Source of the DNA: a virus
Taxonomy: Duplodnaviria > Caudoviricetes
Virus record (IMG/VR): IMGVR_UViG_3300025838_000022
Location: 58,798 to 122,797 of that record
Length of the DNA stretch: 64,000 nucleotides
Reading direction: 5' to 3' (one strand)
In this document: in pieces, positions 14,681 through 61,523 of the stretch
Numbering within the stretch: position 1 is the first letter of the stretch
How the letters are laid out: every line of letters begins with the position of its first letter
Notes under the pieces: generated by a model
The model's input: the letters and a program-made list of their open reading frames with translations, nothing else
Databases searched by the model: none
Told to the model about the DNA's origin: nothing
Made by a program: the position numbers and the translations under genes

Positions 14681-14708
14681 ACACCTGAGCAAGTGTAAAA
14701 ACTGCTCA
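14681..14708 (+). ncRNA. H-type pseudoknot element between tRNAs
   Basis: ACAC-C-TGAGCA-A-GTGT-AAAAAC-TGCTCA; same architecture as the copies at 54593 and 56936. Confidence 0.6.
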
Positions 14709-14709
14709 A

Positions 14710-14783
14710 CGGGATGTGGCTCAGCTTGGTAGAGCGCCTGGTTTGGGACCAGGATGTCGTCGGTTCAAATCCGGCCATCCCGA
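14710..14783 (+). tRNA. tRNA-Pro(UGG)
   Basis: CGGGATG/CATCCCG acceptor, CCTGG-TTTGGGA-CCAGG anticodon arm. Confidence 0.93.
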
Positions 14784-14790
14784 CACAGTA

Positions 14791-14862
14791 GCCCTTGTAG
14801 CTCAGTGGCAGAGCATCTGTTTTGTAATCAGAGGGTCGGGGGTTCAAATCCCTCCGGGGGCA
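14791..14862 (+). tRNA. tRNA-Thr(UGU)
   Basis: GCCCTTG/CGGGGGC acceptor, loop TTTGTAA, T-loop TTCAAAT. Confidence 0.88.
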
Positions 14863-14905
14863 CGTAGTATAGTATGTACGTACATACACAGAATGAGAGT
14901 GCACT

Positions 14906-15133
14906 ATGAACTTAAAACAAGCAGCAACAATTATGCTAGAGTTGTGCAAGATTCCAGCTGAACCAAAACTGGTAGCGGCGTTTAGTAATTACTCAGCTAA
15001 TAGTATGTGGATTAAGAGTGTGCTAAAGGGTGCAGCCCCTTCGGCAAACACTTTGAATAACCCCGCTTACGAGCAAGCACTCACCGTGTTGCGCGAAAAC
15101 GGAATTGATGTTAATATCTTTGATACCAACTAA
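14906..15133 (+). CDS. Hypothetical protein
   Basis: ORF inside the tRNA region. Confidence 0.55.
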   Translation: MNLKQAATIMLELCKIPAEPKLVAAFSNYSANSMWIKSVLKGAAPSANTLNNPAYEQALTVLRENGIDVNIFDTN

Positions 15134-15146
15134 GTAAGGAAAAGAA

Positions 15147-15443
15147 ATGAAGAGTAGGAATAAGTTCTTACTGGCAGTGCCAGTAATCGTAATTATTATT
15201 GTGTTGGCCATCATCGGCTTCGTGCACATCATTTACCCACAGTGGATCGGTGAGCAAGCAGGTGAATCTGGTTACTTCCAGAAGGCTGTTGGTCTGATCA
15301 CAGACGCACCACACGCAACCGCAGAATTGTTTTACTCAACGGTTGAAGACCTGGTAATCTTGGCCGTAGGTCTTGCCTGGGGTAAGCGACTCTGGCGTAA
15401 GGAACACAAGAAGTTCGATGAGGAACACGACATCAAGCATTAG
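15147..15443 (+). CDS. Membrane protein
   Basis: N-terminal and C-terminal hydrophobic helices; good RBS. Confidence 0.6.
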   Translation: MKSRNKFLLAVPVIVIIIVLAIIGFVHIIYPQWIGEQAGESGYFQKAVGLITDAPHATAELFYSTVEDLVILAVGLAWGKRLWRKEHKKFDEEHDIKH

Positions 15444-15449
15444 TGCCAA

Positions 15450-15522
15450 GCCCTAGTAGCTCAATGGATAGAGCATCGGAGTTCTAACCCGCAGGTTGCA
15501 AGTTCGAGTCTTGCCTGGGGCA
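15450..15522 (+). tRNA. tRNA-Arg(UCU), atypical anticodon arm
   Basis: GCCCTAG/CTGGGGC acceptor, D-arm GCTC/GAGC, loop GTTCTAA, T-loop TTCGAGT; the anticodon stem has two mismatches. Confidence 0.78.
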
Positions 15523-15547
15523 CGCAGTTGACAAGTAAGGAGAAAGT

Positions 15548-15898
15548 ATGGCAGGATTAGGAACGAAATTAGCTAAGCGTGGCGTAGGCTTTGCTGCTGG
15601 ATATGAGCTTTATCAATTCAGCAAACGAATGAAAAAAGAAAGAGAACGCATGAACGAAGAAGAAAAAAATCCAGTTATCGATGGGGAAACAGTAATTGAT
15701 TATCAGTTTATTTTCTATGAGAAGGCTGTTCTAGAAATTCTAGACACAGTATCAAAGCTCATTGAAAAAGTAATTGAGAATGAAGTCGTAATCGAGGATG
15801 AACTTTACGCCAAGGCAAGCAAGATCATCAACGTTATGAAGCATGTATTAAAAACAAAAGAGGAAGGGTTAAAGGTTCAAAATGGAACTGAAGCTTAG
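15548..15898 (+). CDS. Hypothetical protein
   Basis: ORF with an AAGGAG RBS. Confidence 0.6.
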   Translation: MAGLGTKLAKRGVGFAAGYELYQFSKRMKKERERMNEEEKNPVIDGETVIDYQFIFYEKAVLEILDTVSKLIEKVIENEVVIEDELYAKASKIINVMKHVLKTKEEGLKVQNGTEA

Positions 15899-16205
15899 TG
15901 TAAACATTGGTGCAACACTTCAAGTGAAGAATGCACGCGGTGAATGGGATTGGATCAAGCCCGAGGTTGGTTGTGAGATCAAACTCGTTGACGGTGAAAT
16001 CAAGGTGGAATCATTGCCTACGCAGTTCGCTGTCATGTGGGATGAAGTCGTAGGACCTCAGTTCGCAGCTGTAGTGCAGGAGCTTATCAACGAACAGACT
16101 CCAAAGAAGGAAGAAGTCGAAGAGACTACGACTGAAGAGGTTACGACTGAAGAGACTCTCGTAGAAGAAGAGAAGCCAAACGTAGACGAGGATGACTACT
16201 ACTAA
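15882..16205 (+). CDS. Hypothetical protein with acidic tail
   Basis: ORF coupled to neighbours. Confidence 0.6.
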   Translation: MELKLSVNIGATLQVKNARGEWDWIKPEVGCEIKLVDGEIKVESLPTQFAVMWDEVVGPQFAAVVQELINEQTPKKEEVEETTTEEVTTEETLVEEEKPNVDEDDYY

Positions 16206-16329
16206 TGTTTGATGACTTCGATGCATTCGTCGAGAAGCATGGCATCAAAGATGATGAGATTGGTGCAGCATTCGCTGCCTGGATGTCAGGTGCAACTGGA
16301 TGGGATGGAGACTTTGAAAAGGTGGAAGA

Positions 16330-16884
16330 ATGACAGTAATTGCTGCAGCACTAACAACTGATAATGGCATTGTTATTGTCGGTGACTCGGAGCTATCCAC
16401 ACAATTCACTCGTGACAATGATGGATACAGCAAGGTGTGGGTGGATGAGGTAAACGAAGGTTACATTTTTGGTGGAGCCGGTAACCTCAGAGAGCTACAG
16501 ATTATTAAGTACCATGTCGCTTGGCCCTACTACCGTGACATCTACCCTGTAGAAGAGTTCATTGTCAAAGAGGTAGTGCCAAAGATGCGAGATGCATTGG
16601 TTGACAATGGCGTTAAAATGGAAGACTATGAGAGTTCCTTTATAATGGCGTGGGGCGATAACCTCGTGGTCATCGACGAGGACTTCGGTGTCACTATTCC
16701 TCTTAGCGCAAGGTATGCTATTGGCTCAGGCCAGAGCGAAGCTTTCGGTGCCCTTGGCAACGAAGGTGGTTGGACAAAGAATGACGTTATCGAGGCAGCT
16801 CACCGCGCCACGGTTACAGCAATTGGAGTCGGCGGTCCTTTGTACGCTGTAGATACCATCGATTTGACAGTGAGACAAGTATGA
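16330..16884 (+). CDS. Ntn-hydrolase (HslV/proteasome-beta-like) protein
   Basis: N-terminal M-T-V-I (Thr nucleophile), 'GDS', 'GGAG', 'YAIGSG', 'VGGP'. Confidence 0.75.
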   Translation: MTVIAAALTTDNGIVIVGDSELSTQFTRDNDGYSKVWVDEVNEGYIFGGAGNLRELQIIKYHVAWPYYRDIYPVEEFIVKEVVPKMRDALVDNGVKMEDYESSFIMAWGDNLVVIDEDFGVTIPLSARYAIGSGQSEAFGALGNEGGWTKNDVIEAAHRATVTAIGVGGPLYAVDTIDLTVRQV

Positions 16885-16892
16885 ACTACTAT

Positions 16893-16921
16893 TTGACAAT
16901 CCCGTCCCGGGATGCTAGCTT
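16893..16921 (+). promoter_or_regulatory. SigA-type promoter with extended -10
   Basis: TTGACA-17 nt-TAGCTT, preceded by TGC. Confidence 0.65.
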
Positions 16922-16950
16922 TTACATAACAACAAGTAAGGAGACTGCCA

Positions 16951-17640
16951 ATGAAGCAGAACTACATTATGCCCCAGCGGAAGCAACCCGCTACTACCCC
17001 ACTCCGGGAAGTAACGGAACCTACGTTTGGGGAACCTACTAAGCCAGCTACTCGTGCCGAGACTCGTCGCAACAGTGCGAATGAGGCTGGCATTATCGAA
17101 GCTGCCGAGACGTTCAGCCTGCTCAACGAGGTCATGTACACCACCGAGATTGGTGAGGTGCGCCCTCTTGAGCCTGTTGAGGTCGACACACTTGCCTCTG
17201 AGCTCGTAGCTGTCCGTAAGGCTAAGGACATCGTTGAGGGACGTGAGTCTGCTCTCAAGACATTTGCCACCGAGGTGATCAACCTTAAGATCGCCATGGA
17301 TGGTGAGAGCGCAGCCTCTACCAGCGGATACCTGGTTAGCCCAGAGAACGGCATCAAGTTGTCCAAGGAAGTCTCTGGTGGCAAGCTCACCGTCGACATC
17401 GATTTGCTCGAGCAGGTGCTTGATGAGGATCAGTTCCGTTCAGTTGTAAACTTTGTTGAGACCCAGATCACTACTACTCGTCCTGATGGCAGCAAGATGG
17501 TAGAAGCAACCAAGGCATACGAGCTGAACGAAGAAGCTCTTGAGAAGGAACTCAAGCTTGGTAACATTGGCATGGAGCAGGTAGTCAAGGCAACCACTCC
17601 AGGCAAGGTACGGTCAGCCTTCTATGTCCGAAGCCTCTAG
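16951..17640 (+). CDS. Hypothetical protein
   Basis: 229-aa ORF with a strong RBS and phage-like codon usage. Confidence 0.7.
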   Translation: MKQNYIMPQRKQPATTPLREVTEPTFGEPTKPATRAETRRNSANEAGIIEAAETFSLLNEVMYTTEIGEVRPLEPVEVDTLASELVAVRKAKDIVEGRESALKTFATEVINLKIAMDGESAASTSGYLVSPENGIKLSKEVSGGKLTVDIDLLEQVLDEDQFRSVVNFVETQITTTRPDGSKMVEATKAYELNEEALEKELKLGNIGMEQVVKATTPGKVRSAFYVRSL

Positions 17641-17971
17641 AGGACCAAGGAAAAAGCTTCCTCTACGTGACGACGAACTATTGTTCACGACAGCAATGGC
17701 TGCATCATTCTTTGATCTCACCGCAGACTCGTTAAGGAAAAAAGAAAAATACCTTTACGATGTCTCCGGTGGGGTCATGGAATTTGCCAGGACTGAAGGC
17801 GGTAGACGTAGATATAGTCTAAATGACATACTTAAAATAGCTCATTCGTTGCGTAGAGCTAATAAGATGACAGACAGACAGCTTCGTCTAATCGTATTGC
17901 GAGTAGATGCTTTCAAAGAACCTGTGCTTAAGCATAGGAGAAAGTTCCGAAAAGGTAATAATCCATCATGA
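17624..17971 (+). CDS. MerR-type HTH DNA-binding protein
   Basis: 'FTTAMAASFFDLTADSLRK.E...RTEGGRRRYSLNDI'. Confidence 0.75.
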   Translation: MSEASRGPRKKLPLRDDELLFTTAMAASFFDLTADSLRKKEKYLYDVSGGVMEFARTEGGRRRYSLNDILKIAHSLRRANKMTDRQLRLIVLRVDAFKEPVLKHRRKFRKGNNPS

Positions 17972-18918
17972 AAAAATGTTTATTAGTATTTGATGGACAC
18001 AACATATTCATTCGTAGCTTCAGCGGTTTGATGAGACAAGGTCTTACAGCTCCTGATGGATCAGGCACGTGGGGTATCTTTGGTGCGTTTAACGTGGTGG
18101 CTAGTCTTATTAGAAAGTACGAACCTTCTCATGTTCTTATCGCGTTTGACAAAGGACGTAGCGCAAAAAGATTAGCTATTGATCCAGAGTACAAAGCAAA
18201 CCGCAAGCGCAACGAGAACAAGCCAACAAGTCCTGTTAATGATGCATTCTCACAAGACTTCAAACCACAGCTGGCCATGTTCCAGCACCTATGTTCGAAG
18301 AATGGTTTACCATATATGCAGATTCAAGACGTTGAGGCTGACGACATCATTGCTACGGCTGCATTGAGTTTCCAAAACATCTTTGATGACATTGTTATCG
18401 TAAGCGCAGACCACGACTTGCACCAGTTGATTAGAGAAAACATAACGGTTGTCAAGCCAAGCATTAGCTACCGTGACATTGAAGAAGAAGTTTATAACGT
18501 AGAAACGGTAATGGCTGAATGGGGTGTAGAACCCTGGAGGCTGCCTGAGATCTGGGCGTTAATGGGTGACAAGGGTGACAATGTTAAGGGGATCCCAGGC
18601 ATTGGACCTAAGAAAGCTACCAAGTTAATAAGCGAACATGGTGATTTAAGCACAGTGCTTAATTTGGATGATCCTAAAATTTCTGAACATGTAGACACAG
18701 TGCTTAAGGCAAAGCGTTTGATCGAGCTTGGTGTAGACGATGAATTGCCATTCCCACCATTGGGTAACTTACAATTCAATCCAATTTCTCAAGGCGATAA
18801 AGAATCAAAAGACCTAGAGAGGCTGTTAGATTTGCTCGGGTTTGTTCAGGTGAAAGATCGTTGGAAGCAGAATGCACTGTGGCATGATTCACCAAAGTTT
18901 GGCAGGAAGTTAAAATGA
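17968..18918 (+). CDS. 5'-3' exonuclease / flap endonuclease (PolA N-terminal-like)
   Basis: 'FDGHN', 'YKANR', 'EADDII', 'SADHDL', 'LMGDKGDNVKGIPGIGPKKA'. Confidence 0.93.
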   Translation: MKKCLLVFDGHNIFIRSFSGLMRQGLTAPDGSGTWGIFGAFNVVASLIRKYEPSHVLIAFDKGRSAKRLAIDPEYKANRKRNENKPTSPVNDAFSQDFKPQLAMFQHLCSKNGLPYMQIQDVEADDIIATAALSFQNIFDDIVIVSADHDLHQLIRENITVVKPSISYRDIEEEVYNVETVMAEWGVEPWRLPEIWALMGDKGDNVKGIPGIGPKKATKLISEHGDLSTVLNLDDPKISEHVDTVLKAKRLIELGVDDELPFPPLGNLQFNPISQGDKESKDLERLLDLLGFVQVKDRWKQNALWHDSPKFGRKLK

Positions 18919-19985
18919 CAAACTGGGTAATCAACCCTGAGGTTGACATGGTAACCATCCTGGCAGAGTACGGTAGGTTCTTGGAGAACGATTACCGTAT
19001 GATGATAGAGCACCTGGAAGTGCCAAAAGTTTTCCAAGAGTACCCAGAGTCAACAGAGCGTAAGTTTGTAATCGTTGGTGGCAAAGAGACACCGTGGATG
19101 TTATCCAAGAGTGTATTCTTATGCCTAAAGCTAGCTGGTGCTGAAAGCGTTGTTGTAACTACGCCTTTTATCGACGAAAGCTTTATGGTACAGAACGTAC
19201 TAGACAACCACTCCAATGGCATTAGAACCAAGTTATTTACTGCTAACAGTGAAGAATTGATTACAAATATGGAGTGGCGTGATGAAATTGAAAACGCTAC
19301 TGACATCGTTGTATTCGGTGACAAGAAGACCATGGAATTCTTCCGTGAATATGAAACCGTTGATAGGCATGTATGGGAACATGGAGAAAACTTTAGCTTC
19401 GGTATCGTAAGGGAAGAGCACTTAACTCCAACGGTTATCAACCAAATATGTTTTGATTTCTTCTCGTTCTACGGACAAGGTAGTCTTGCACCAAAGTTTT
19501 ACTTCGTGCTGGGTCGACTTAAGAAAAGTATTATCAAACAGTTCAGTGCAAACATGCAAAGCCTTTACGCTCCACTTGTCAATGAGTACCGTGAGAAGCT
19601 AGAGCTCACAAGGAAAAGCGACCTCGTCAGCAACATGCTCAACGCCAACTATGCTGCCAAGTATGTCAAGGTTGGTGATTTGCACTCGGACGTTTTGCGT
19701 GATAACCTCTACGGTGAAGTCTGCCTAATCCCCGTAAATGACCTGGACCAAATCCAAGACTTTATAGATAAATGGCACGACAACATTAGCACAGTAGCTA
19801 TTAACAACAGCGACGATCCCGATGTCTTGGATTTCCTGGAGGATAATCTTATCCTTAGGATCTGTGATGTTGGTGATATGCAGTTCCCAGATTTCTTTGA
19901 GCAATATCATTCAGTAGACGATTACATTGTTTACGTGAAGATGAGCGAAGAAGAAGAATATGAAGACGATCCATTTTATTGGTAG
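18915..19985 (+). CDS. Acyl-CoA reductase (LuxC)/ALDH-fold-like protein, catalytic Cys apparently replaced
   Basis: 'DIVVFGD..T', 'HGENFSFGIV', 'DFFSFYGQGSLAPKFYFV', 'ISTVAI', 'RIC.VG.MQ.P' parallel LuxC motifs. Confidence 0.5.
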   Translation: MTNWVINPEVDMVTILAEYGRFLENDYRMMIEHLEVPKVFQEYPESTERKFVIVGGKETPWMLSKSVFLCLKLAGAESVVVTTPFIDESFMVQNVLDNHSNGIRTKLFTANSEELITNMEWRDEIENATDIVVFGDKKTMEFFREYETVDRHVWEHGENFSFGIVREEHLTPTVINQICFDFFSFYGQGSLAPKFYFVLGRLKKSIIKQFSANMQSLYAPLVNEYREKLELTRKSDLVSNMLNANYAAKYVKVGDLHSDVLRDNLYGEVCLIPVNDLDQIQDFIDKWHDNISTVAINNSDDPDVLDFLEDNLILRICDVGDMQFPDFFEQYHSVDDYIVYVKMSEEEEYEDDPFYW

Positions 19986-19999
19986 TAAGAAAAGGAAAA

Positions 20000-20266
20000 A
20001 TGAATAATAAAATTAGACAAAAAATAACAAAGCATGCTGACTCTTTAACGTTCAGAGTCGTTTTAACAATCGGCGTGTTCGTAGGTCTTATCGTATCAAT
20101 CCCATTTGTTGTCGTCGGTTACCCATTTGTGTTATCATGGAACATCGCGACAACGCTGCTGGATTACAAAAGCGATGAAGAAACAGTCAAGACGACCTTT
20201 GACTTCTTTAATAAGTGGGGCCGTTTCGATGAAAATTTTAACAGTTGGAAGAAGGAAGCAAATTAA
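20000..20266 (+). CDS. Membrane protein
   Basis: Long hydrophobic segment; ATG at 20000 after an AGGA RBS. Confidence 0.55.
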   Translation: MNNKIRQKITKHADSLTFRVVLTIGVFVGLIVSIPFVVVGYPFVLSWNIATTLLDYKSDEETVKTTFDFFNKWGRFDENFNSWKKEAN

Positions 20267-21860: not shown

Positions 21861-21874
21861 TAGAAAGTAAGAAA

Positions 21875-23155: not shown

Positions 23156-23157
23156 GA

Positions 23158-48969: not shown

Positions 48970-48970
48970 A

Positions 48971-52304: not shown

Positions 52305-52556
52305 TTAGACATACTTCATTCCTTTCTCTCGCTTGCGTTTAGATATGCGTCGTTCTTTGGGAGCCTGACCCCCATAGATACCATCCTTAATGCTGTTATC
52401 TAATGCATAGTCAAGACATTGTTTCTTAATTATACAAGCATTGCATATTTCCCTAACTGCTTTCATGTTTGCAATAGCAGTAGGACCTTTCTCGATAAAG
52501 AACATGTTTACATCTTTACCTCGACAGTTGGCTTGCTCACGCCATTCTTCACTCAT
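52305..52556 (-). CDS. whiB: Second WhiB-family transcription factor
   Basis: WREQANC...MFF...CNAC...C..YAL...GIYGG...ER. Confidence 0.9.
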   Translation of the reverse strand: MSEEWREQANCRGKDVNMFFIEKGPTAIANMKAVREICNACIIKKQCLDYALDNSIKDGIYGGQAPKERRISKRKREKGMKYV

Positions 52557-52565
52557 ACTTGCTCC

Positions 52566-53510: not shown

Positions 53511-53515
53511 AATGT

Positions 53516-54157: not shown

Positions 54158-54170
54158 GCATATTCCTTTC

Positions 54171-54563
54171 TTACTCGGTTACAATCTCAATTACGTCATC
54201 ACCCGCAATTGCTTTCTTCATAACATCGTTGGCTCGTTTAAGAACCATAGCAGCCTTATCAAACGTAAGACCAAGCGTGTGGCCTTTGTTGTCAACACCA
54301 CCAGTGATGATAATGTCACCAACAATAAGATCAGTCATACCATATGAGTCAACCCATAGAGCAGAACCAAACGCATTGATTTCTGGTTCATTAACCAACT
54401 TACCTTCATCGTCAATCCACATGTCGACATCCAATGATGGCAGGTGAATGCATTGGATTGTACCTCCTCCAATGGCTGCCTTAATTGTCTCATATGATTT
54501 AGACTCATCAAAGTCAACAACATCAAGGTTGTTGTCTGAGGTAACGGTAATTGCATACTTCAT
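54171..54563 (-). CDS. DUF3846-family protein
   Basis: 'IGGGTI..I.......MWIDDEGKL...N......D.IVGDIIITG'. Confidence 0.78.
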   Translation of the reverse strand: MKYAITVTSDNNLDVVDFDESKSYETIKAAIGGGTIQCIHLPSLDVDMWIDDEGKLVNEPEINAFGSALWVDSYGMTDLIVGDIIITGGVDNKGHTLGLTFDKAAMVLKRANDVMKKAIAGDDVIEIVTE

Positions 54564-54592
54564 TTTGTGTCCTAACTGTTTGTGGGTTTAAT

Positions 54593-54622
54593 GGAGCAGT
54601 TTCACCACATGCCCCAGGTGGT
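54593..54622 (-). ncRNA. H-type pseudoknot leader element
   Basis: - strand ACCAC-CT-GGGGCA-T-GTGGT-GAAAC-TGCTCC. Confidence 0.65.
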
Positions 54623-54632
54623 TACTACATTA

Positions 54633-55262
54633 CTACTGAGGCCAACCGATTTGAATTTCCTTACCATTGATAACAATGGTCTTAGGCTGCTGAACAACTA
54701 CAGGTTCAACAACCTCAGGTTCCTTAGCTGCCTCATCAGTCATACTAGACGCCTGAGCAATAATGTTAATCATCTCTTGAACATCATCTCTTGTTGGCGT
54801 CGTTGGCCAACTAGGTGTTGATACAACTGGAACAGTTGCAACTGCTGGAGTGATAGCAGTTAATGGTGGTGGAGTAGCAGGCGGAGTGTATCCCATCTTG
54901 CCTACTCGCACACTGCTAGTGTTGCTAGCGTTAGGCATCCATACCTCTGCACGGCCATCGTCAACACACCTAGCAAGCATGCTTTCCAAGAACCATTTAC
55001 GCGCTTCAGTCTGTGTGTCAAAGCATTCACGCACCGTATTAACTAGGTGCTCAATGGTTGCCTTAGCGATCTCAGGCGTTTCAAATGTCAGGGCGGCGAA
55101 TGTATGATTAGCTCGACCCTTTGGATGCCATGATTTTCGTATCTCAACTTTGCATGGTACCTTGTTACTCACCGTGAAAGCGTAGTCAATCACGTCACGG
55201 GTGCGGTTGGAGTTCCAACCACGACCGTCCTTTTTCTTAAGCCAAACCATGTCTTTTGACAC
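54633..55262 (-). CDS. Hypothetical protein (paralog of 56078-56491) with P/T-rich tail
   Basis: Shared 'RK....AN......F.....AK......FDT..E...WF' core. Confidence 0.6.
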   Translation of the reverse strand: MSKDMVWLKKKDGRGWNSNRTRDVIDYAFTVSNKVPCKVEIRKSWHPKGRANHTFAALTFETPEIAKATIEHLVNTVRECFDTQTEARKWFLESMLARCVDDGRAEVWMPNASNTSSVRVGKMGYTPPATPPPLTAITPAVATVPVVSTPSWPTTPTRDDVQEMINIIAQASSMTDEAAKEPEVVEPVVVQQPKTIVINGKEIQIGWPQ

Positions 55263-55459
55263 AGATTACCTTCCTACTTGACCTGTTAATAATAGCAGGC
55301 GGTCAATTCTGCCTACGCTACTTGCGTATTAATACTCACCATCTTTAATTGCTTTGAGCAATACATGTGTGTATGACCATGCTTCCTGGTCTTGCATTGC
55401 AAGCAAAAGCATCTCAATATGCGTAAGCATATCAATTACTTCTTGACGTGGTATATCAC

Positions 55460-55645
55460 TCATACATTCTCCTTACTTGGGGTGCAGTCACCATTCTCAA
55501 TGAGCGCCATTGCCATACGACCGTAATGCCCTTGCAAACGCCAGGCCATACCGTTATTAATAAGCTCTTGGAACAGCTCAATGATTTCTAGTCCATTGAG
55601 TTCATCCTGCTCATAAGCAATAATTTTACTAGTTAAATCAATCAT
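55460..55645 (-). CDS. Conserved small phage protein
   Basis: 'IIAYE..EL......LFQELI..G.AW.LQGHYGR.A..LIE.G'. Confidence 0.65.
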   Translation of the reverse strand: MIDLTSKIIAYEQDELNGLEIIELFQELINNGMAWRLQGHYGRMAMALIENGDCTPSKENV

Positions 55646-56031
55646 TCGGTCTCCCAACCATACTCACGTAATACTTTCTTTTGTAAATCTTTATGCATTA
55701 CTTCATTCATACTTTTAAACTCTTGCTCATTGTTTGGTAGTTGTGATATAAAATCAATATCAAACACACCTGCCAAGTTATTGGTAAACACAACAAGGTT
55801 ATTAAGGATCTCGTTGCTTGCATTAATAGCAAGAGGAATAGACTGTTTATATGCATCTGATTCAATAAATGATTTAAACTGCTCAGGAATTTCACCTAGT
55901 AACTCTTGCCTGTGTACCTCAAGAGTTGTGTTGACAGTAAAGAATACTTTAACAAGGTCAACTAGCTTTAGTAGTTCTTCCTTGATAATAGCAAGCTTTA
56001 CTTCATCTGACAATTGGATTTCATTATCCAT
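55642..56031 (-). CDS. Hypothetical protein
   Basis: ORF with an AGAAAG RBS. Confidence 0.55.
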   Translation of the reverse strand: MDNEIQLSDEVKLAIIKEELLKLVDLVKVFFTVNTTLEVHRQELLGEIPEQFKSFIESDAYKQSIPLAINASNEILNNLVVFTNNLAGVFDIDFISQLPNNEQEFKSMNEVMHKDLQKKVLREYGWETE

Positions 56032-56077
56032 GATATTCTTTCTGACCTTGTTGTTTTACCTGATAAGCGGTCAATTA

Positions 56078-56491
56078 TCAGATTGGGTAACCAGCATGGA
56101 TTGAACTTGGCAAAGAAGTTCTTTGTTCTGGTAAAGGAGCATCTTTATAGTCATTTAATTGTTTAATAAACCATTCTTCTCCTTCTTTAATAGTATCAAA
56201 CATAATAGTTGAAGCATATAATAAAGAATCTAAAAAAGATTTTGCAACATAACTGCTTCTAAATTCTTTTCTCATAACAACAACGTTAGCTACTTTCTTA
56301 CCTTCAGCACATTTTCTGACTATAAGAACAGCGTTCTTATTGATAATGCCACCATGCTGACCAGCTTTTAAAGTAAAAGATAAATCTACTTGGTGTGAAT
56401 ACCAACGGTGATTTGGTTTGGTCCTTGCTGTCCAAATCAAATCATCATACGCATAAGAACGTCTCCATTGTAATTGTCTACCTACCATCAT
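56078..56491 (-). CDS. Hypothetical protein (paralog of 54633-55262)
   Basis: Shares the paralog core motif; AT-rich coding sequence. Confidence 0.55.
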   Translation of the reverse strand: MMVGRQLQWRRSYAYDDLIWTARTKPNHRWYSHQVDLSFTLKAGQHGGIINKNAVLIVRKCAEGKKVANVVVMRKEFRSSYVAKSFLDSLLYASTIMFDTIKEGEEWFIKQLNDYKDAPLPEQRTSLPSSIHAGYPI

Positions 56492-56720
56492 TCTCCTTGG
56501 GTACAAACATATTGATTGCTTCTTCAATTGCTCGCTTAGCTATTTGCTTATTAACTTCTCCATTCTCTGAATCAATAGCCATCATCATGCCATCCATGTC
56601 ATTGGCTAATCCCTGAAGTAACTCTTCAAACTTTTTGTGAAACAACTTTGATTGTTCAGGGTCATCAAACGTAATGTTAATTTGCAAGTTAGGTCCTTGT
56701 TGGTTGCATTCAATCTGCAT
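56478..56720 (-). CDS. Hypothetical protein
   Basis: ORF immediately downstream of the putative large ncRNA. Confidence 0.55.
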   Translation of the reverse strand: MQIECNQQGPNLQINITFDDPEQSKLFHKKFEELLQGLANDMDGMMMAIDSENGEVNKQIAKRAIEEAINMFVPKENDGR

Positions 56721-56739
56721 AATACTTCTTTCTTACTAG

Positions 56740-57497
56740 TGGATTAGGTGGGCCCGTTGGACGTTCGGGTGGAGCCCATACCCTACACACCGTAACCTCG
56801 GTGTCTCAGTCCAGCTCAGTGCTGGCAACCCCGTCTATTCAATAGGCTTCAGGTTACCTACATAAGCTTCCCCTTATGTTGAGTCCGTGTCTGCATCACA
56901 TCGCGCATATGCTGTCCATGCAGACACAAGAAAGGGGGACAGTTTAACCACATGTCCCAGGTGGTTTGAGCGTCTTCACCGGTACTCGCGCTCACTAGCA
57001 CAATGGTTCCTATCTCTACCTACCAATAAGTATAGATTCTCACGCTCCTCTGCGTGTGTTCTTTAAGGCATCCACTAATCTCCTGCACCGGCTTCCCCCA
57101 TGTGCTGAGTGTGTTAACTTATAATCTCGTAGGATCATATTCCGGTACATCATAAGCTAACAACAGTTCCCGTACACACAATAAAGCATGTACGGGATCG
57201 CCAGTTAAGCTAGCGCAGCTACCACTTTAAAGCCGGTGGCCATGGCATAAGTGGACAGGTTTAAGGAGAGCCTCCGATCCTATGCACACTTCCTTATGCA
57301 CTAAGCATTCTTTAACGCAGTTTTTGATCTGCGAGTACATAGTTCTCTGACCATAGCACCATCCAAGCAACCATACTCCGTATCAATGGCCTAGCAGCCC
57401 CGTCTTTTCAAGAGGTACGGCTGTCTCCGGATAGGGTTTTGACGATAACCCTCCACATCGTCTTACTACTAACTACGCTTGTGAGAAACGCGTGAAG
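56740..57497 (-). ncRNA. Putative large structured non-coding RNA (about 750 nt)
   Basis: No ORF of 60 aa or more on either strand; more than 12 helices, long-range pairings and 3 pseudoknots; G.U pairs favour the - strand. Confidence 0.65.
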
Positions 57498-57665
57498 TTA
57501 GTCGTTAGAGCTAGTGCCCAATACTGCGCGGGCATTGTTGATCATGTCGTCGTAGCTAGGCATTGAAGACAAGTCAATGCCCATAGGCTTAAGCGCATTA
57601 GTAATCTCTTCGATTACATAAAGCAAGTTCAAGCCAAGCTTTCGATAACCTTCTGCTTCAGTCAT
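57498..57665 (-). CDS. Hypothetical protein
   Basis: Probable ATG at 57665 after an AGAAGGTGAG RBS. Confidence 0.45.
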   Translation of the reverse strand: MTEAEGYRKLGLNLLYVIEEITNALKPMGIDLSSMPSYDDMINNARAVLGTSSND

Positions 57666-57666
57666 G

Positions 57667-58044
57667 TTACTCACCTTCTTTCTCGAGCCAGTGGTCCTGG
57701 TGACCACAGCCATCCTTGGTGCCATCACACTCAGGGTGGTGCTCATTGTGGATAGCAAACGGCGCACCAAGAACCTTGATGGCTTCCTTCTGCATCATGT
57801 CATACAGAATGTTGACCTGGTTAAGCGCAAGGCGCAGACCCAGAGGGAACACAACGGAGAGCTTCTCCAAGTCTTCCTTGGATACCTCATCCTCGGTAAG
57901 GATGTTGGCTACACCAATGAAAGGCTGAAGCACAGTACCCATCTTGGTACCCCAATCCTTGATGGCATTGAGGAACTCTGCGTGAGCAACACGTGCAAGT
58001 GTTGCATCGTCAAGTGCAATGTCACCGAAGTTAAAGTCTTCCAT
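57667..58044 (-). CDS. Hypothetical protein
   Basis: ATG at 58044 after AAGGAG. Confidence 0.6.
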   Translation of the reverse strand: MEDFNFGDIALDDATLARVAHAEFLNAIKDWGTKMGTVLQPFIGVANILTEDEVSKEDLEKLSVVFPLGLRLALNQVNILYDMMQKEAIKVLGAPFAIHNEHHPECDGTKDGCGHQDHWLEKEGE

Positions 58045-58160
58045 GATATCTCCTTGTTGTTTATTGTTGCACCTATTTGGTGCATCTGGGTGTAGCCACA
58101 CCTCATACGTGTGTGACTACACCCAGGCACTTGGGTATCTAGTTACCCAAAGACTTCGTG

Positions 58161-59624
58161 CTACAGACGACCAAGAAGCGCCTTGCGGATAGGACCGGCA
58201 GGCTTGTTGATAAGCTTACCAGCCTTGAACATCTTGACCGCTTCCTCGACGGAAGGGATCATGATGATCTTGTGCTTCTTGACCAGCTGAGCGCACTGGA
58301 GGATAATGTCGTCGTTCTGACCGCCACCGTCAGAGGTGACTTCACCATCTGAGACCCAGACGATTGGCTCGTTGGGGTGACGGTTCTTGATACCCCACAC
58401 CAGAGCAGGACCGTCGACGCCGTTGCCAGCACCACCGATATTTGGGATCTCACGTACACGCCAGCCACGTTTGGCGAGGAGCCACGCATTGGCAGAGGTG
58501 TAGTGAGTCTGACTGTATGCGAGGATGGTCGCAGCAGGCGCTGCCTCGACAATCGCTTCGATGTCTTGCTGTGACAGAGACATAGAACCTGAGATGTCGA
58601 CGATGACCATGCCACCCTTGACGCGTACCTTATTGGTAAAGATACGACGCTCGGGGTCAGTGTACCAACGGCTAACGTTGCCGAGCTTACGACCGACCAA
58701 GGCAGGCTTGCGCTTACGATTCATGAACCCCTCGACCTGGACAGACAGTGGAAGCGTGTCGTCAATGACAAGCTCCGCAAAGTCTCCATCCTCGTCGTGT
58801 GGGAACTCGTAGTCGTCAGGCAAGTCGTCCTCGAGTGGAGTCTGGTCAGGGTCAAGACGGTTAGCATCTTGCTCCGCCTGACCATACTCCTCAAGGATCT
58901 TGTCTTCCTCCTCCTGGCGCTGTTGGGCAACGCTGCTAGGAGAACGCCTACCGTTGGCATAGTTGGCAATCTCAGAGGCTGCAACAAGAGTGTTGTTGTA
59001 ACCCCTCGGACCCACTACGTCGCTGCTGTAGTGGTATGGCATGGTAGAGCCAAGGTCACCCGGTGTACCGTCAAAGATACTAGTGAGACGACCAGCAAGC
59101 TTACGCAGCATGTCGCTCCAATCTGGGTTCACAGAGCGTACGCCAGCAGCAAACGAATCGAATGCTGACTTGTTGGCGTAGTTACGCACGGTGAATTCAA
59201 CTGCATCTTCCCAGTCGTTAGGGCTGCCAGCAGTTGCCATACGGATACCTGACTTCTTCTCCGCACCGGTGGAGTCAAGCTCAAGACCCTTGATCTTGGC
59301 AAAAGGCTCAGTAACAGCGTTGATACGAGCCTCCTCCGCAAGATTGAGAAGAGCCCTGGTGACACCATTGTGCTTGTAAGACTCAGCCACTACCTTGGCA
59401 ACCTCCTCAGTCTGAAGACCGACGCGGGCGCGGATGAGCTCACGCAGCTGCGTACGACGGGACCAGTCGTCCCCCCGAAGGGGGACGGCCAGTACCTTCG
59501 CAGCCCAGTCGACACCTACACCCATCTGGCCCGTAGTGGGCTCGACAGTCCAGGTAGTCGTCTCGGCTATGTCGTCACGGAACGCAGTGATTGCCCCTAC
59601 AAGGGGCTTCTGCTCGTCAGCCAT
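58161..59624 (-). CDS. VWA (MIDAS) domain protein, partner of the MoxR ATPase
   Basis: 'IVDISGSM' (DxSxS), 'WVSDG'; N-terminal peptidase-like region with 'EEARIN'. Confidence 0.8.
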   Translation of the reverse strand: MADEQKPLVGAITAFRDDIAETTTWTVEPTTGQMGVGVDWAAKVLAVPLRGDDWSRRTQLRELIRARVGLQTEEVAKVVAESYKHNGVTRALLNLAEEARINAVTEPFAKIKGLELDSTGAEKKSGIRMATAGSPNDWEDAVEFTVRNYANKSAFDSFAAGVRSVNPDWSDMLRKLAGRLTSIFDGTPGDLGSTMPYHYSSDVVGPRGYNNTLVAASEIANYANGRRSPSSVAQQRQEEEDKILEEYGQAEQDANRLDPDQTPLEDDLPDDYEFPHDEDGDFAELVIDDTLPLSVQVEGFMNRKRKPALVGRKLGNVSRWYTDPERRIFTNKVRVKGGMVIVDISGSMSLSQQDIEAIVEAAPAATILAYSQTHYTSANAWLLAKRGWRVREIPNIGGAGNGVDGPALVWGIKNRHPNEPIVWVSDGEVTSDGGGQNDDIILQCAQLVKKHKIIMIPSVEEAVKMFKAGKLINKPAGPIRKALLGRL

Positions 59625-60382
59625 TACAGCGACACTTCCGTGCTAAGGGTGCCGATACGGATGGCGTCGATGATGGGCTCAGCCATCTTACCGAACACCA
59701 GCTTGGCAGCACGCTCAGTGGTGAACAGAGGGCTGTTACGCAGCGTCTGGAATTCCTTCCAGGCACGGAGCGAAGCACGCTCACCGGGACGACCAGCGAC
59801 GATGGTGGCAGCCAGCATGCGCAACTCTGGCGGCAATGCAGAGACCAACGCAGCTGGGTGAGCAGCGTCAATCTTGATTGCAACCGGGAAGCGGTCACGC
59901 AGCGGACCCTCAATCTCGTTGGGGTCCTCGAAGTTGGTGGTCATGATGGCAGAGAAGCCCTCACGCGGTAAGTGAACCTCACCGGTGTAAGGGTTCTTCC
60001 AGACCGCCGACTCCGGGCTGTCAAGGAACTTCATCAGCGTGGTGACAACGTCACCGCTGGCACGGTTGATCTCGTCAACAACGAGACGACCGCCAACAGT
60101 ACCGTCACCATCCCAGGTGATTGGCCCGATGCCCTTGACGTAGTTGAAACCACCACGCTCGTTGGGAAGCATAGAACCAACGATGTCAGCGTTGGTCATG
60201 TCCTCGGAGCAGAGGAGGGTCTCGAACCCAGCTGCATTGATGTGCAGGGTCTGGGCTGAATACGTCTTGCCAGTGCCGGGGGGACCGTAGAGGATGACAC
60301 GCTTGCAACCTGCAGCGAGCACATCGTTAAGGTCAATGAAGCACTGGGGAATCGGGATTCCCTCGATGAATTCAGTGGTCAT
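59624..60382 (-). CDS. MoxR/CbbQ-like AAA+ ATPase
   Basis: GPPGTGKT, 'VVDEINRA', 'MTTN', 'LRDRF'; coupled (TAATG) to the VWA gene. Confidence 0.88.
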   Translation of the reverse strand: MTTEFIEGIPIPQCFIDLNDVLAAGCKRVILYGPPGTGKTYSAQTLHINAAGFETLLCSEDMTNADIVGSMLPNERGGFNYVKGIGPITWDGDGTVGGRLVVDEINRASGDVVTTLMKFLDSPESAVWKNPYTGEVHLPREGFSAIMTTNFEDPNEIEGPLRDRFPVAIKIDAAHPAALVSALPPELRMLAATIVAGRPGERASLRAWKEFQTLRNSPLFTTERAAKLVFGKMAEPIIDAIRIGTLSTEVSL

Positions 60383-60452
60383 AATATGTTTCTCCCTGTG
60401 TTTAACGGTGCTTGGGAACACCGGGCACATACCTGGGTTGGTATGTGAACCG

Positions 60453-60523
60453 TACTGCAGGTGGGAATTGAACCCACAACCTACCTGGTTAACCAGGTTG
60501 CTCTACCATTGAGCTACTGCAGT
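60453..60523 (-). ncRNA. tRNA-like RNA with a non-canonical 6-nt palindromic anticodon loop
   Basis: ACTGCAG TA GCTC AATGGTA GAGC A ACCTG GTTAAC CAGGT AGGTT GTGGG TTCAATT CCCAC CTGCAGT A. Confidence 0.8.
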
Positions 60524-60529
60524 GACCTA

Positions 60530-61003
60530 CTACTTGGCTATAGCCTGGATCAGCATGGCCTTCGACTTGTTGTCGAATGAGATGGTTGCTGTCTTGTAAC
60601 CACGCTTGATAGCTTCACGGTACATTCGAGTACGCATGTTGTCATGTCCGAACTTCTTGAATGGAATCAACGATTCAAGGTCGGAGTACGGGACAACATG
60701 GGTCTGACCGTCAAGGATGGCGTCGAGCCACACCTTGTGCTGCTTCCAACGGATGTGCGTTGCTGCACGCATTGGCTTCTTGTGAGTAGCCTTGACTGCG
60801 TTGACTGCCTTGACAATCTCGTCAACAGCAATCGCCCGTGGAGCTGGTGTTGGTGCGGGAGTCTCGTTGTGACTGCTCGTCTTGAATGATTCGATGAGCT
60901 CGATCACCTTGATAACTTCACCGCGAGTGGCAGGACGCTCAAGTACCGTGTCAGTTGCAGCCAACACGCTCTTGATTGTCTCACTCATCTTGTTAACGCT
61001 CAT
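60530..61003 (-). CDS. Hypothetical protein
   Basis: ORF with an AAGGAG RBS. Confidence 0.6.
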   Translation of the reverse strand: MSVNKMSETIKSVLAATDTVLERPATRGEVIKVIELIESFKTSSHNETPAPTPAPRAIAVDEIVKAVNAVKATHKKPMRAATHIRWKQHKVWLDAILDGQTHVVPYSDLESLIPFKKFGHDNMRTRMYREAIKRGYKTATISFDNKSKAMLIQAIAK

Positions 61004-61149
61004 GGATTTCTCCTTGATGTTTGCCCTTACTGGTTTACTACAGAGTAGCAGGGGTGATGACTACTCCGATGCACACACGAATAGCCATGATACTCGTGTG
61101 TACATCGCAGTAGCCGGGCAATACAACACCCGGCCCTGCTTGTTGCTAA

Positions 61150-61467
61150 CTACAAGAACTCGACGGGGTCACGGTCCTCAAAGATTGCTTCGAGGTCAGC
61201 GTACGTATAGTCCTCAGGGTTCTCCTGATAACGCTTGAGTGCAGCCTCAATGCGTTCATCCTGGTTACTATCTCCGTCATCTTCCTCGTCATCGGAAATG
61301 TTCTCGAAGATAGGAACAGCCCAGTCAGGAACCCATACTTCGTCCTGACCATAAGCAATTGATTCCTTAGTTGCTTCGTGCAAGCACTCTAGAAGCGCCC
61401 TCTGGACATTGTTCCAACGTTCAGCAAGTTCCTTACTGATCGGTGGGTTGTCAACTGGTTCACTCAT
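61150..61467 (-). CDS. Acidic hypothetical protein
   Basis: ATG at 61467 after AAGGAGG. Confidence 0.6.
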   Translation of the reverse strand: MSEPVDNPPISKELAERWNNVQRALLECLHEATKESIAYGQDEVWVPDWAVPIFENISDDEEDDGDSNQDERIEAALKRYQENPEDYTYADLEAIFEDRDPVEFL

Positions 61468-61523
61468 TGCACCCTCCTTAGGTGAGTGGGCCCGTTTCGG
61501 TGGAACCCATACCGCCTGTGTTG

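What the first reader, a model, noticed from the sequence alone, without database searches (positions are those of the whole stretch)
14681..61514. Dispersed family of compact H-type pseudoknots with covarying stems and a conserved AAC-ending loop 3
Seen: five intergenic copies share the layout S1-L1(1-2 nt)-S2-L2(1 nt)-S1'-L3(ending AAC)-S2'. They are 14681-708(+) ACAC C TGAGCA A GTGT AAAAAC TGCTCA; 54593-622(-) ACCAC CT GGGGCA T GTGGT GAAAC TGCTCC; 56936-66(-) AACCAC CT GGGACA T GTGGTT AAAC TGTCCC; 56749-83(-) GGGT A TGGGCTC C ACCC GAACGTCCAAC GGGCCCA; and 61487-514(-) CGGT A TGGGTTC C ACCG AAAC GGGCCCA. Both stems change sequence yet stay paired, so covariation is visible within one genome. 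All lie on the transcribed strand; three sit just upstream of an RBS and one abuts the 5' end of tRNA-Pro. Inference: this is a reusable cis-RNA module. It could be a nuclease roadblock (Actinobacteria have the 5'-3' exoribonuclease RNase J), a protein-binding translational operator like the T4 gene 32 pseudoknot, or a small-ligand aptamer.
Basis: partly seen in the sequence, partly recalled or inferred. Interest (0 to 1): 0.82.

Follow-up and report, generated by a model that had tools for sequence, protein, structure and literature searches.

The report
Compact phage RNA pseudoknot punctuation module
The five small RNA knots are real members of two widespread, uncatalogued phage pseudoknot types that sit just behind genes, tRNAs and phage tmRNA tags. 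They probably act as tough dividers or protective end-caps within long transcripts, though no function has been tested.

Summary
All five pseudoknots are in the sequence as described. The layout alone is chance-level, at about 100 descriptor hits per genome. Comparative evidence is what makes them real.

- **Orthologues:** each copy has one in related uncultured phages, with structure-preserving changes, including paired one-base deletions in both strands of both stems.
- **Two sequence types:** type A (three copies) recurs in about 40 distinct IMG/VR contigs and in cultured Lentibacter phage ICBM2. Type B (two copies) recurs in over 100 contigs and in 28 Cluster A mycobacteriophage records, including Bxb1.
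- **tmRNA link:** most type B copies are the 3'-terminal pseudoknot that follows the tag stop codon of phage-borne permuted tmRNAs.
- **Covariation:** unconstrained stem positions show all Watson-Crick and wobble pair types.
- **Position:** stand-alone copies lie a median 9.5 nt after the upstream stop codon. The upstream gene is often a major capsid or ribonucleotide reductase gene. The next 12 nt are G-poor.
- **Bacteria:** in a few genomes the same knot plus a U-tract ends genes.
- **Catalogues:** no Rfam family or paper matches.

My reading is a nuclease- and helicase-resistant boundary module that mainly serves the upstream RNA's 3' end. This is inferred, not shown. RNase J blocking and protein-operator roles remain open, and an aptamer is unlikely. 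Earlier notes of this scan describe similar knots on other DNA.

The parts
14681..14708 (+). Type A pseudoknot (A3): ACAC C UGAGCA A GUGU AAAAAC UGCUCA. It lies in the tRNA-Lys to tRNA-Pro spacer and ends 1 nt before tRNA-Pro.
   Evidence: An orthologue in relative G005 sits after tRNA-Lys and 4 nt before the next tRNA. Its S2 is UGGGUA/UGCCCA, which gives an A-U to G-C compensatory change. The same S2 as in the window copy occurs in Lentibacter phage ICBM2.
54592..54622 (-). Type A pseudoknot (A1): ACCAC C UGGGGCA U GUGGU GAAAC UGCUCCA. It lies 10 nt after the TAG stop codon of the 209-aa ORF (54633-55262) and 28 nt before the ATG of the DUF3846 gene (54171-54563).
   Evidence: Orthologues in G001 (GCAC C UGGGUA U GUGU CUAAAC UGCCCA) and G004 (UCAC..GUGA) keep both stems through paired deletions and swaps, while the flanks stay nearly identical.
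56936..56966 (-). Type A pseudoknot (A2): AACCAC CU GGGACA U GUGGUU AAAC UGUCCC. It lies inside the 780-nt ORF-free region and is followed by a U-rich tail and a strong hairpin.
   Evidence: Orthologues in G001 and G006/L231 (AGCAC CU GGGUA U GUGUU UAAAC UGCCC) keep both stems.
56749..56783 (-). Type B pseudoknot (B1) with the long, tmRNA-style loop 3: GGGU A UGGGCUC C ACCC GAACGUCCAAC GGGCCCA. It lies 28 nt before the ATG at 56720.
   Evidence: The G001 orthologue has a C-G to U.G change and a loop change. It aligns without gaps with 61 terminal pseudoknots from viral contigs, most of them from tmRNA genes.
61487..61514 (-). Type B pseudoknot (B2) with a short loop 3: CGGU A UGGGUUC C ACCG AAAC GGGCCCA. 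It lies 9 nt after the TAA stop codon of the 217-aa ORF (61524-62177) and 19 nt before the ATG at 61467.
   Evidence: Orthologues behind the same ...VCNL* gene occur in G001 (loop 3 UGAC; C-G and G.U swaps), G004 and other contigs, with an S1 outer pair of C-G, U-A or G-C.
54633..54635 (-). Stop codon (TAG, immediately followed by TAA) of the ORF upstream of A1.
   Evidence: This is part of the recurring arrangement of stop codon, short spacer, then pseudoknot.
61524..61526 (-). Stop codon (TAA) of the ORF upstream of B2.

Best explanation
WHAT IT IS (shown). The five elements are copies of a very compact H-type RNA pseudoknot of 26-35 nt.
- Layout: S1 of 4-6 bp, a 1-2 nt loop 1, S2 of 5-7 bp starting (U)GGG, one junction base, and a crossing strand that ends in AAC.
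- It comes in two sequence types.
- Both types are widespread in phages of different host phyla and are kept by compensatory change.
- Type B is also the last structure of phage-borne two-piece tmRNAs.

HOW IT WORKS (inferred). The knot folds on its own right behind the end of an RNA unit, which may be a protein ORF stop codon, a tmRNA tag stop codon or a tRNA trailer. It is followed by a G-poor, unstructured spacer.
- I think it is a mechanically tough boundary element.
- After the transcript ends or is cut in the spacer (by RNase E, or by RNase P where a tRNA follows), the knot caps the 3' end of the upstream RNA.
- The cap would stop 3'-to-5' exonucleases. This would raise the yield of the upstream gene relative to downstream genes and keep neighbouring units from misfolding into each other.
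- With a U-tract added, the same knot serves as a terminator.
- The minimal loops and the conserved AAC, which probably forms minor-groove triples with S1, are what I expect gives such a small fold its resistance.
For: Real structure:
- All five window copies have orthologues that keep both stems.
- In type A (43 sequences), the S1 outer pair, which the search pattern did not constrain, reads AU 8, CG 8, GU 8, GC 6, UA 6, UG 2 and unpaired 5. No shuffle out of 500 reaches the observed covariation score.
- In type B (62 sequences), pair 4-20 reads GU 49, CG 6, GC 4, AU 3. Pair 13-34 reads UG 28, CG 19, UA 13, AU 1.
- An invariant U.G wobble, together with strand-specific placement, points to RNA rather than duplex DNA.

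3'-boundary role:
- In permuted tmRNAs the knot is the final structure, 7-10 nt after the tag stop codon. The RF01849 model ends 3 nt after it.
- Of 73 non-redundant stand-alone copies, 60 lie behind a long same-strand ORF, at a median 9.5 nt from its stop codon. The next start codon is further and more variable, at a median 27 nt.
- Of 20 upstream ORFs tested, 5 are major capsid proteins from five different PHROG families and 2 are RNR large subunits.
- Some copies lie between convergent genes or just before a terminator hairpin.
- In seven CPR and Bdellovibrionales genomes the knot lies 5-12 nt after a protein stop codon and is followed by a U-tract.
- The 12 nt after the knot contain only about 10% G.
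Against: - No transcript ends, half-lives or nuclease assays exist, so the direction of protection is inferred from position alone.
- Short phage spacers force any element to lie near both a stop codon and an RBS.
- 48 of 73 copies also have an SD and a start codon within 80 nt downstream, so a 5'-UTR role is not excluded.
- In the tRNA spacer (A3), a 3' cap on the tRNA-Lys trailer has no obvious benefit.
- Four of the five window copies have no U-tract, so they are not terminators.
- The capsid enrichment rests on 20 ORFs, and my gene calls were crude.
- The high sequence conservation of S2, loop 1 and the junction base may instead mean a specific protein or ribosome partner.
Confidence: 0.42

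Rival explanations
1. 5'-to-3' exonuclease roadblock: a bacterial counterpart of viral xrRNAs such as coremin. RNase J, approaching from the 5' side, stalls at S1, which is braced by the AAC crossing strand. This protects the downstream cistron or tRNA.
For: - The host is probably actinobacterial (two WhiB genes), and Actinobacteria have RNase J (established knowledge).
- The layout and the UUAAAC-like crossing strand resemble the coremin and xrRNA-WCC elements. Those elements stall Xrn1 and ribosomes in vitro (PMC10520033 and PMC10321173).
- 48 of 73 copies have an RBS and start codon 17-70 nt downstream.
- Several copies sit 1-4 nt before a tRNA.
Against: - Copies at the very 3' end of transcripts would protect nothing downstream. 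These include tmRNA ends, the CPR copies with a U-tract, and copies between convergent genes.
- Placement behind capsid genes fits protection of the upstream message better.
- Coremin needs a second hairpin, and none is conserved here.
- According to PMC10321173, ordinary frameshifter pseudoknots do not stall Xrn1.
- Carriers infect several host phyla. I did not check which of these hosts have RNase J.
Confidence: 0.18
2. Protein- or ribosome-binding operator. The knot is a nucleation or docking site, like the T4 gene 32 pseudoknot, for a phage or host RNA-binding protein or for ribosomal protein S1. Binding would control or enhance translation from the unstructured spacer and RBS that follow, forming a post-transcriptional regulon.
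For: - The order of pseudoknot, G-poor unstructured spacer and RBS mirrors the gene 32 leader (gene 32 from established knowledge and PMC10690425).
- S2, loop 1 and the junction base are strongly conserved in sequence, more than a mere roadblock should need.
- In Cluster A mycobacteriophages the knot is followed 3-4 nt later by a stoperator-like 13-mer.
Against: - The same knot occurs in phages of unrelated hosts and gene content, in tRNA spacers, at tmRNA 3' ends and before terminators. No translation start follows in those places.
- No co-occurring protein gene was found. This was not searched systematically.
- The distance to the start codon is variable (17-70 nt).
Confidence: 0.15
3. Translational insulator. 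A knot placed at the ribosome's mRNA entrance when the stop codon is in the A site blocks read-through, sliding or re-initiation. This would uncouple a heavily translated gene from its downstream neighbour.
For: - The spacing to the stop codon is tight (4-17 nt in most copies). The knot holds the same position after the tmRNA tag stop codon.
- Tandem stop codons lie upstream of several copies.
- Coremin-type knots block scanning ribosomes and stimulate frameshifting (PMC10321173).
Against: - The copies in tRNA spacers and inside the ORF-free RNA region are not translated.
- Spacer length and reading frame are not conserved between orthologues (1-nt indel), so no recoding product is made.
Confidence: 0.1
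4. Small-ligand aptamer: a preQ1-I-like mini-riboswitch.
For: It has the same strand order as the class I preQ1 aptamer, with an A-rich crossing strand (established knowledge).
Against: - No Rfam riboswitch family matches, even at E up to 5.
- The junction is a single base, which leaves no room for a pocket.
- Loop 3 varies from 4 to 14 nt.
- The copies precede or follow unrelated genes, tRNAs and tmRNAs.
Confidence: 0.02
5. Chance folds or DNA-level sites such as operators or att sites.
For: - The bare layout is common by chance.
- Nested folding is no better than shuffles.
- tmRNA 3' ends are frequent att sites (PMC11915505).
Against: - Compensatory changes occur in both stems in orthologues and across about 100 unrelated copies.
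- Wobble pairs would be mismatches on the other strand.
- The orientation is always that of transcription.
- The window's region shows no integrase context. The ten neighbouring proteins I scanned gave no integrase match.
Confidence: 0.02

Closest known systems
3'-terminal pseudoknot of permuted (two-piece) tmRNA, alpha-type (tail of Rfam RF01849)
   Same: - Type B has the same S1 core (GGU/ACC), the same strand order and an ...AACAGAAC-type crossing strand.
- It holds the same place, 7-10 nt after a stop codon.
- In more than 60 distinct viral-contig sequences, type B is that tmRNA pseudoknot.
   Different: - The window has no tmRNA: no tRNA-like domain and no tag ORF.
- The S2 sequence differs from the alphaproteobacterial consensus (GGAGG/CCUCC).
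- Stand-alone copies have loop 3 shortened to 4-9 nt and sit between ordinary genes.
- Type A has no tmRNA counterpart that I found.
Coremin motif (xrRNA-C) and its Watson-Crick variant xrRNA-WCC of RNA viruses (PMC10520033, PMC10321173)
   Same: - Both are tiny H-type or H-type-like folds with a 4-bp S1 and a 1-nt loop 1.
- Both have a crossing strand of the type UUAAAC just before S2'.
- Both are dispersed in UTRs and intergenic spacers.
- Coremin has a documented ability to stall an exonuclease and ribosomes.
   Different: - Coremin's hairpin loop is 4-6 nt with a YGAD or YGNNAD consensus, and its S2 is 3 bp or non-canonical.
- Coremin requires a second hairpin directly downstream.
- Here the loop is 8-9 nt, S2 is 5-7 Watson-Crick or wobble pairs, and no second hairpin is conserved.
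- The carriers here are DNA phages, so the relevant nucleases are bacterial. Resistance has not been tested.
T4/T2 gene 32 autoregulatory mRNA pseudoknot
   Same: The architecture is nearly identical: S1 of 5-6 bp, a 1-nt loop 1, S2 of 7 bp and a crossing strand of about 7 nt. Both are followed by an unstructured leader and an RBS (established knowledge).
   Different: - The gene 32 knot is a single copy in the leader of the ssDNA-binding protein gene, where it nucleates gp32 binding.
- Here the element is multi-copy, behind unrelated genes, in tRNA spacers and at tmRNA ends.
- There is no sequence similarity.
- No Rfam model of the gene 32 knot exists for a formal test (PMC10690425).
3' stabiliser hairpins at cistron boundaries (E. 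coli REP elements; T7 RNase III-processed 3' hairpins and the T-phi hairpin behind the capsid gene)
   Same: The position is the same: just behind highly expressed genes inside polycistronic transcripts. The proposed effect, blocking 3' exonucleases, is also the same (established knowledge; functional analogy only).
   Different: Those are simple hairpins. This is a pseudoknot with conserved loops, and the analogy is inferred from context.

Membership tests
Permuted (two-piece) tmRNA (RF01849 / RF04321) | tRNA-like domain: acceptor and T arm with CCA, on an acceptor piece | tested here: not met
   ARAGORN and Rfam find no tmRNA in the window or in the whole 122.8-kb genome. Only spurious calls appear at a lowered ARAGORN threshold.
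Permuted (two-piece) tmRNA (RF01849 / RF04321) | Tag reading frame ending ...(L/I/V)AA followed by a stop codon just upstream of the terminal pseudoknot | tested here: not met
   B2 follows a 217-aa ORF that ends ...VCNL*. B1 follows small hairpins and a UAG, with no tag-like frame.
Permuted (two-piece) tmRNA (RF01849 / RF04321) | Terminal H-type pseudoknot with a GGU/ACC S1 core and a crossing strand ending in AAC | tested here: met
   B1 aligns without gaps with 61 terminal pseudoknots from viral contigs, most of them at the ends of tmRNA genes. B2 is the same with a short loop 3.
Coremin / xrRNA-C | 4-bp hairpin with a YGAD (or YGNNAD) loop | tested here: not met
   The S1 hairpin loop is 8-9 nt (C UGGGYA U or A UGGGYUC C) and forms 5-7 standard pairs. 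The family definition comes from PMC10520033.
Coremin / xrRNA-C | Conserved spacer (GUUAAACUAC type) after the hairpin | tested here: inconclusive
   In type A the crossing strand is mostly NUAAAC followed by U, which is similar over about 7 nt. Type B shares only the AAC.
Coremin / xrRNA-C | A second hairpin directly downstream, required for resistance | tested here: not met
   The 12 nt after the knot are G-poor and not conserved. Only A2 happens to be followed by a hairpin.
Coremin / xrRNA-C | Stalls a 5'-to-3' exonuclease | not testable with these tools
   This needs RNase J or Xrn1 digestion assays.
T4/T2 gene 32 pseudoknot operator | Located in the 5' leader of the ssDNA-binding protein gene and bound by that protein | tested here: not met
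   The downstream genes are a DUF3846 protein, unknown small proteins and tRNA-Pro. Binding cannot be tested here.
T4/T2 gene 32 pseudoknot operator | Compact H-type fold with a 1-nt loop 1 spanning a 6-7 bp S2 | tested here: met
preQ1-I riboswitch (RF00522) | A match to the family model, and a multi-nucleotide loop 2 that forms the ligand pocket | tested here: not met
   There is no Rfam hit at E up to 5 over 54400-61700. The junction is a single base, and loop 3 varies in length from 4 to 14 nt.
wcaG RNA (RF01761) | A match to the family covariance model | tested here: not met
   No match in the whole genome at E up to 10. There was none in the window scans either.
Intrinsic (Rho-independent) terminator | A GC-rich stem directly followed by a U-tract | tested here: not met
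   Four of the five window copies have no U-run, and A2 has only a U-rich tail. Across the family, 17 of 133 copies have a U-rich tail. The seven bacterial copies do have U-tracts.
Pistol ribozyme (RF02679) | P2 and P3 helices and a cleavage site downstream of the P1-loop pseudoknot | tested here: not met
   There is no Rfam hit. The conserved unit ends at S2', with no further helices.

The most novel reading that the evidence does not exclude
The two types are faces of one general viral 'RNA punctuation knot'. This would be a minimal, triplex-braced pseudoknot that physically stops exonucleases, and perhaps ribosomes. It would be shared by phages of Actinobacteria, Alphaproteobacteria and other hosts, built into phage tmRNAs, and mechanistically equivalent to the coremin-type xrRNAs of eukaryotic RNA viruses. 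That would make it the first prokaryotic-virus class of exonuclease-resistant RNA.
Probability: 0.3. Interest if true: 0.85.

Novelty: new variant of a known kind. Interest (0 to 1): 0.72.

Why it matters
If the reading holds, phages of very different hosts share a 28-nt RNA device that sets the boundaries and lifetimes of segments within long transcripts. That would explain how capsid and other high-demand messages are favoured.

It would also:
- link a so far unexplained part of two-piece tmRNA to a general RNA-stability function;
- give bacteria-infecting viruses a counterpart to the exonuclease-resistant RNAs of eukaryotic viruses.

The motif is missing from Rfam, so it goes unannotated. 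In Lentibacter phage ICBM2 an annotated gene start runs over it.

It is directly testable, because cultured phages carry it: Bxb1 and other Cluster A phages on M. smegmatis, and Lentibacter phage ICBM2. A tiny self-folding stabiliser or insulator would also be a useful synthetic-biology part.

Tried and rejected
- **First type A scan:** an exact-pattern scan built on the window's own S1 found 18 IMG/VR loci. None had the partner strand, so these were chance matches. A second pattern built from the orthologue consensus worked.
- **tmRNA in this genome:** none at default settings. ARAGORN at a lowered threshold gave only spurious calls inside ORFs.
- **B1 as the end of a tag-coding RNA:** rejected. 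There is no tag-like frame, and the upstream part is made of small hairpins.
- **Read-through or frameshift extension:** rejected. The orthologue spacer has a 1-nt indel, and tandem stop codons are present.
- **Rfam:** only tRNAs were found, by gathering and E-value scans of the window and by a scan of seven bacterial loci. wcaG gave no match.
- **Nested thermodynamic folding:** z-scores from -2.9 to +0.7, which is uninformative for a pseudoknot.
- **Literature:** exact motif strings and keyword searches returned nothing relevant.
- **BLAST of type A 35-mers against cultured phages:** mostly chance-level, except for the Lentibacter phage hit.
- **Crude greedy gene caller:** noisy, because spurious ORFs overlapped some knots. 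I use its orientation classes only qualitatively.
- **Loose IUPAC scan of Bxb1 and JC27:** no better than its own control.
- **Earlier-findings look-ups by sequence:** nothing found.


Full report
**Setting.** The window is the last 64 kb of a 122,797-bp IMG/VR viral contig.
- GC content is about 45%.
- The phage encodes a DnaE-type polymerase whose best cultured relatives are actinophages, at about 35% identity.
- It has nine tRNAs and two WhiB genes above the Pfam cut-off. Its host is therefore probably an actinobacterium.
- No cultured phage is close at the DNA level.

The layout by itself is not evidence. A generic descriptor finds 101 such folds on the two strands of the genome. Only six of these have a crossing strand ending in AAC: the five claimed copies and one antisense hit inside an ORF.

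With a looser descriptor plus the GGG start of S2, the genome gives 9 hits against 3.85 +/- 1.56 in simulated genomes. The four minus-strand copies are the top scores. Nested folding picks S2 and is no better than shuffles, as expected for a pseudoknot.

**Two sequence types.**
- Type A: three copies, at 14681, 54592 and 56936. Consensus NCAC-C-UGGGYA-U-GUGN-(N)nAAAC-UGCCC(A).
- Type B: two copies, at 56749 and 61487. Consensus NGGU-A-UGGGYUC-C-ACCN-(N)nAAC-GGRCCCA.

In both types the conserved unit begins and ends with the knot, and the flanks are unrelated.

**Orthologues.** Five related uncultured phages were reached through neighbouring proteins and patterns.

In G001, about 86% identical and colinear with the window, all four minus-strand knots are present.
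- At A1 the flanks are almost identical, but the knot has changed from ACCAC/GUGGU and UGGGGCA/UGCUCCA to GCAC/GUGU and UGGGUA/UGCCCA. That is one base lost from each strand of each stem.
- G004 has UCAC/GUGA at the same site.
- A2 changes both stems in G006.
- B2 keeps pairing through C-G and G.U swaps. Its loop 3 becomes UGAC, and the spacer to the stop codon gains a base. This rules out a read-through product.
- A3 recurs in G005 after tRNA-Lys and 4 nt before the next tRNA, with an A-U to G-C compensatory change.

- 85 of the 120 hits have the partner strand, which the pattern did not require.
- Rfam and ARAGORN show that most of these are the last structure of permuted, two-piece tmRNA genes. 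The knot lies 7-10 nt after tag stop codons such as ...YALAA*, and the RF01849 model ends 3 nt after it.
- A second scan for short crossing strands found 27 loci. Most of these copies sit between ordinary genes, and a few lie just downstream of a tmRNA gene.
- In a gapless alignment of 62 sequences, pair 4-20 is paired in 62 of 62 (GU 49, CG 6, GC 4, AU 3). Pair 13-34 is paired in 61 of 62 (UG 28, CG 19, UA 13, AU 1). The last three loop-3 bases, AAC, are at least 90% conserved without being imposed by the search.
- Among the short-loop copies, the S1 outer pair is a standard pair in 17 of 19. It is A-U, C-G, G-C, U-A, G.U or U.G (read).

**Wider family, type A.** A pattern taken from the orthologue consensus found 61 loci. 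About 40 distinct sequences carry the unrequired CCC of S2'. The unconstrained S1 outer pair shows all six standard pair types and is paired in 38 of 43. None of 500 shuffles reaches the observed covariation score.

**Cultured carriers.**
- Type B occurs in 28 Cluster A mycobacteriophage records. In Bxb1 it is at 1637-1664, before gp3. In JC27 it lies between genes 73 and 72. Each is followed 3-4 nt later by a 13-mer that, from my own knowledge, matches the Bxb1-type stoperator.
- Type A occurs in Lentibacter phage vB_LenP_ICBM2, downstream of the ribonucleotide reductase gene. Its S2 is identical to that of window copy A3.

The motif therefore crosses host phyla. In 185,579 bacterial and archaeal species genomes, type B is rare. 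About seven real copies turned up, in CPR bacteria and Bdellovibrionales. The many tmRNAs that carry it are therefore probably phage genes.

**Context.**
- Of 73 non-redundant stand-alone copies, 60 follow a long same-strand ORF, at a median 9.5 nt after its stop codon. 48 have an SD and a start codon at a median 27 nt downstream.
- Of 20 upstream ORFs scanned, five are major capsid proteins of five different PHROG families. Two are RNR large subunits, and several belong to one DUF932 lineage.
- Some copies lie between convergent genes or just before a terminator hairpin.
- The seven bacterial copies each lie 5-12 nt after a protein stop codon and are followed by a U-tract.
- U-rich tails are a minority in phages, at 17 of 133. 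The 12 nt after the knot are about 10% G.

**Interpretation.** The structure is an RNA feature, for three reasons: the invariant wobble pairs, the strand specificity, and the covariation in both crossing stems.

The one thing all contexts share is the end of an RNA unit. I therefore favour a tough boundary element that caps the upstream RNA against 3' exonucleases after termination or cleavage in the G-poor spacer, and that also insulates neighbouring folds. With a U-tract added, it doubles as a terminator. This is inference from position.

The rivals are:
- an RNase J roadblock protecting the downstream RNA;
- a protein or S1 operator of the gene 32 kind;
- a translational insulator at the stop codon.

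A ligand aptamer is unlikely. The junction is a single base, loop 3 varies from 4 to 14 nt, the neighbouring genes are unrelated, and no Rfam riboswitch matches.

**Comparison with known systems.**
- The closest relative by homology is the terminal pseudoknot of permuted tmRNA. The window has no tmRNA, so the copies are not tmRNA genes.
- By architecture the knot matches the T2/T4 gene 32 pseudoknot.
- By architecture and crossing-strand sequence it resembles the coremin and xrRNA-WCC elements. It fails coremin's defining loop consensus and its second-hairpin requirement.
- wcaG, pistol and preQ1-I do not match.
- No paper or Rfam family describes either type.

**Earlier notes of this scan.** AI notes on other genomes describe small uncatalogued pseudoknots between viral tRNAs and just after phage genes. 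They may be the same motif. They show no sequence, so I could not check. They did supply the coremin and wcaG leads that I tested here.

Noticed in passing
window 56720-57498 (-): A 780-nt ORF-free region that is dense in hairpins and holds knots A2 and B1. The 3' half (56720-57110) is about 86% conserved in relative G001. One hairpin is swapped for unrelated sequence there, and the 5' part (57110-57467) does not align. There is no Rfam match. It is possibly a structured RNA, or an array of RNA modules, capped by a knot at each end.
   Followed up: partly
window 60452-60523 (-): A tRNA-like gene scoring 59.9 bits to RF00005. Its acceptor, D and T arms are normal, but its anticodon loop has 6 nt. 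ARAGORN calls it tRNA-?(Stop|Leu) with anticodon 'ta'.
   Followed up: partly
window 52347-52544 (-) and 6714-6914 (+): Two WhiB-family genes above the Pfam cut-off. They point to an actinobacterial host despite the genome's 45% GC.
   Followed up: partly
window 54623-54640 (-): A tandem repeat, GTAGTAAT GTAGTAAC, sits between the upstream ORF and knot A1 and places stop codons in two frames. A similar GTAGTA(A/T) repeat precedes the orthologous knots in G001 and G004 and some type B copies (L143, L155).
   Followed up: no
L022-L140 (IMG/VR loci), e.g. L079:869-1235, L091:521-827: Dozens of distinct permuted (two-piece) tmRNA genes lie on viral contigs, with tags such as ANDEAYALAA and ANDNFAPTGYALAA. 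Their terminal knot sequence is almost absent from 185,579 species genomes, so they look phage-encoded. Several contigs (L052, L088, L145) carry a second, short-loop type B knot 30-270 nt downstream of the tmRNA.
   Followed up: partly
L277:1601-1645 (Bxb1 1637-1681); L278:1501-1545 (JC27): In Cluster A mycobacteriophages the type B knot is followed 3-4 nt later by a 13-mer of the CTTGA(C/T)(A/T)CGTAAC type. From my own knowledge this is the Bxb1-type stoperator. A repressor site therefore sits next to an RNA knot.
   Followed up: no
L287:382-460 (Lentibacter phage ICBM2, gp26): The annotated start of the 'glutaredoxin' CDS lies upstream of the type A knot, so the CDS runs through it. An ATG with an SD about 30 nt after the knot looks like the real start.
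   Followed up: no
window 8375-8404 (-): A sixth descriptor hit with a GAAAC crossing strand (UUGA UU AAGCGUA U UCAA GAAAC UGCGCUU). It is antisense inside the ORF at 7127-8413 and is probably chance.
   Followed up: no
L172, L173, L182, L195, L202, L203, L210 (CPR and Bdellovibrionales genomes): The type B knot plus a U-tract sits 5-12 nt behind unrelated protein genes. These look like pseudoknotted intrinsic terminators in bacteria. No known RNA lies nearby by Rfam.
   Followed up: partly
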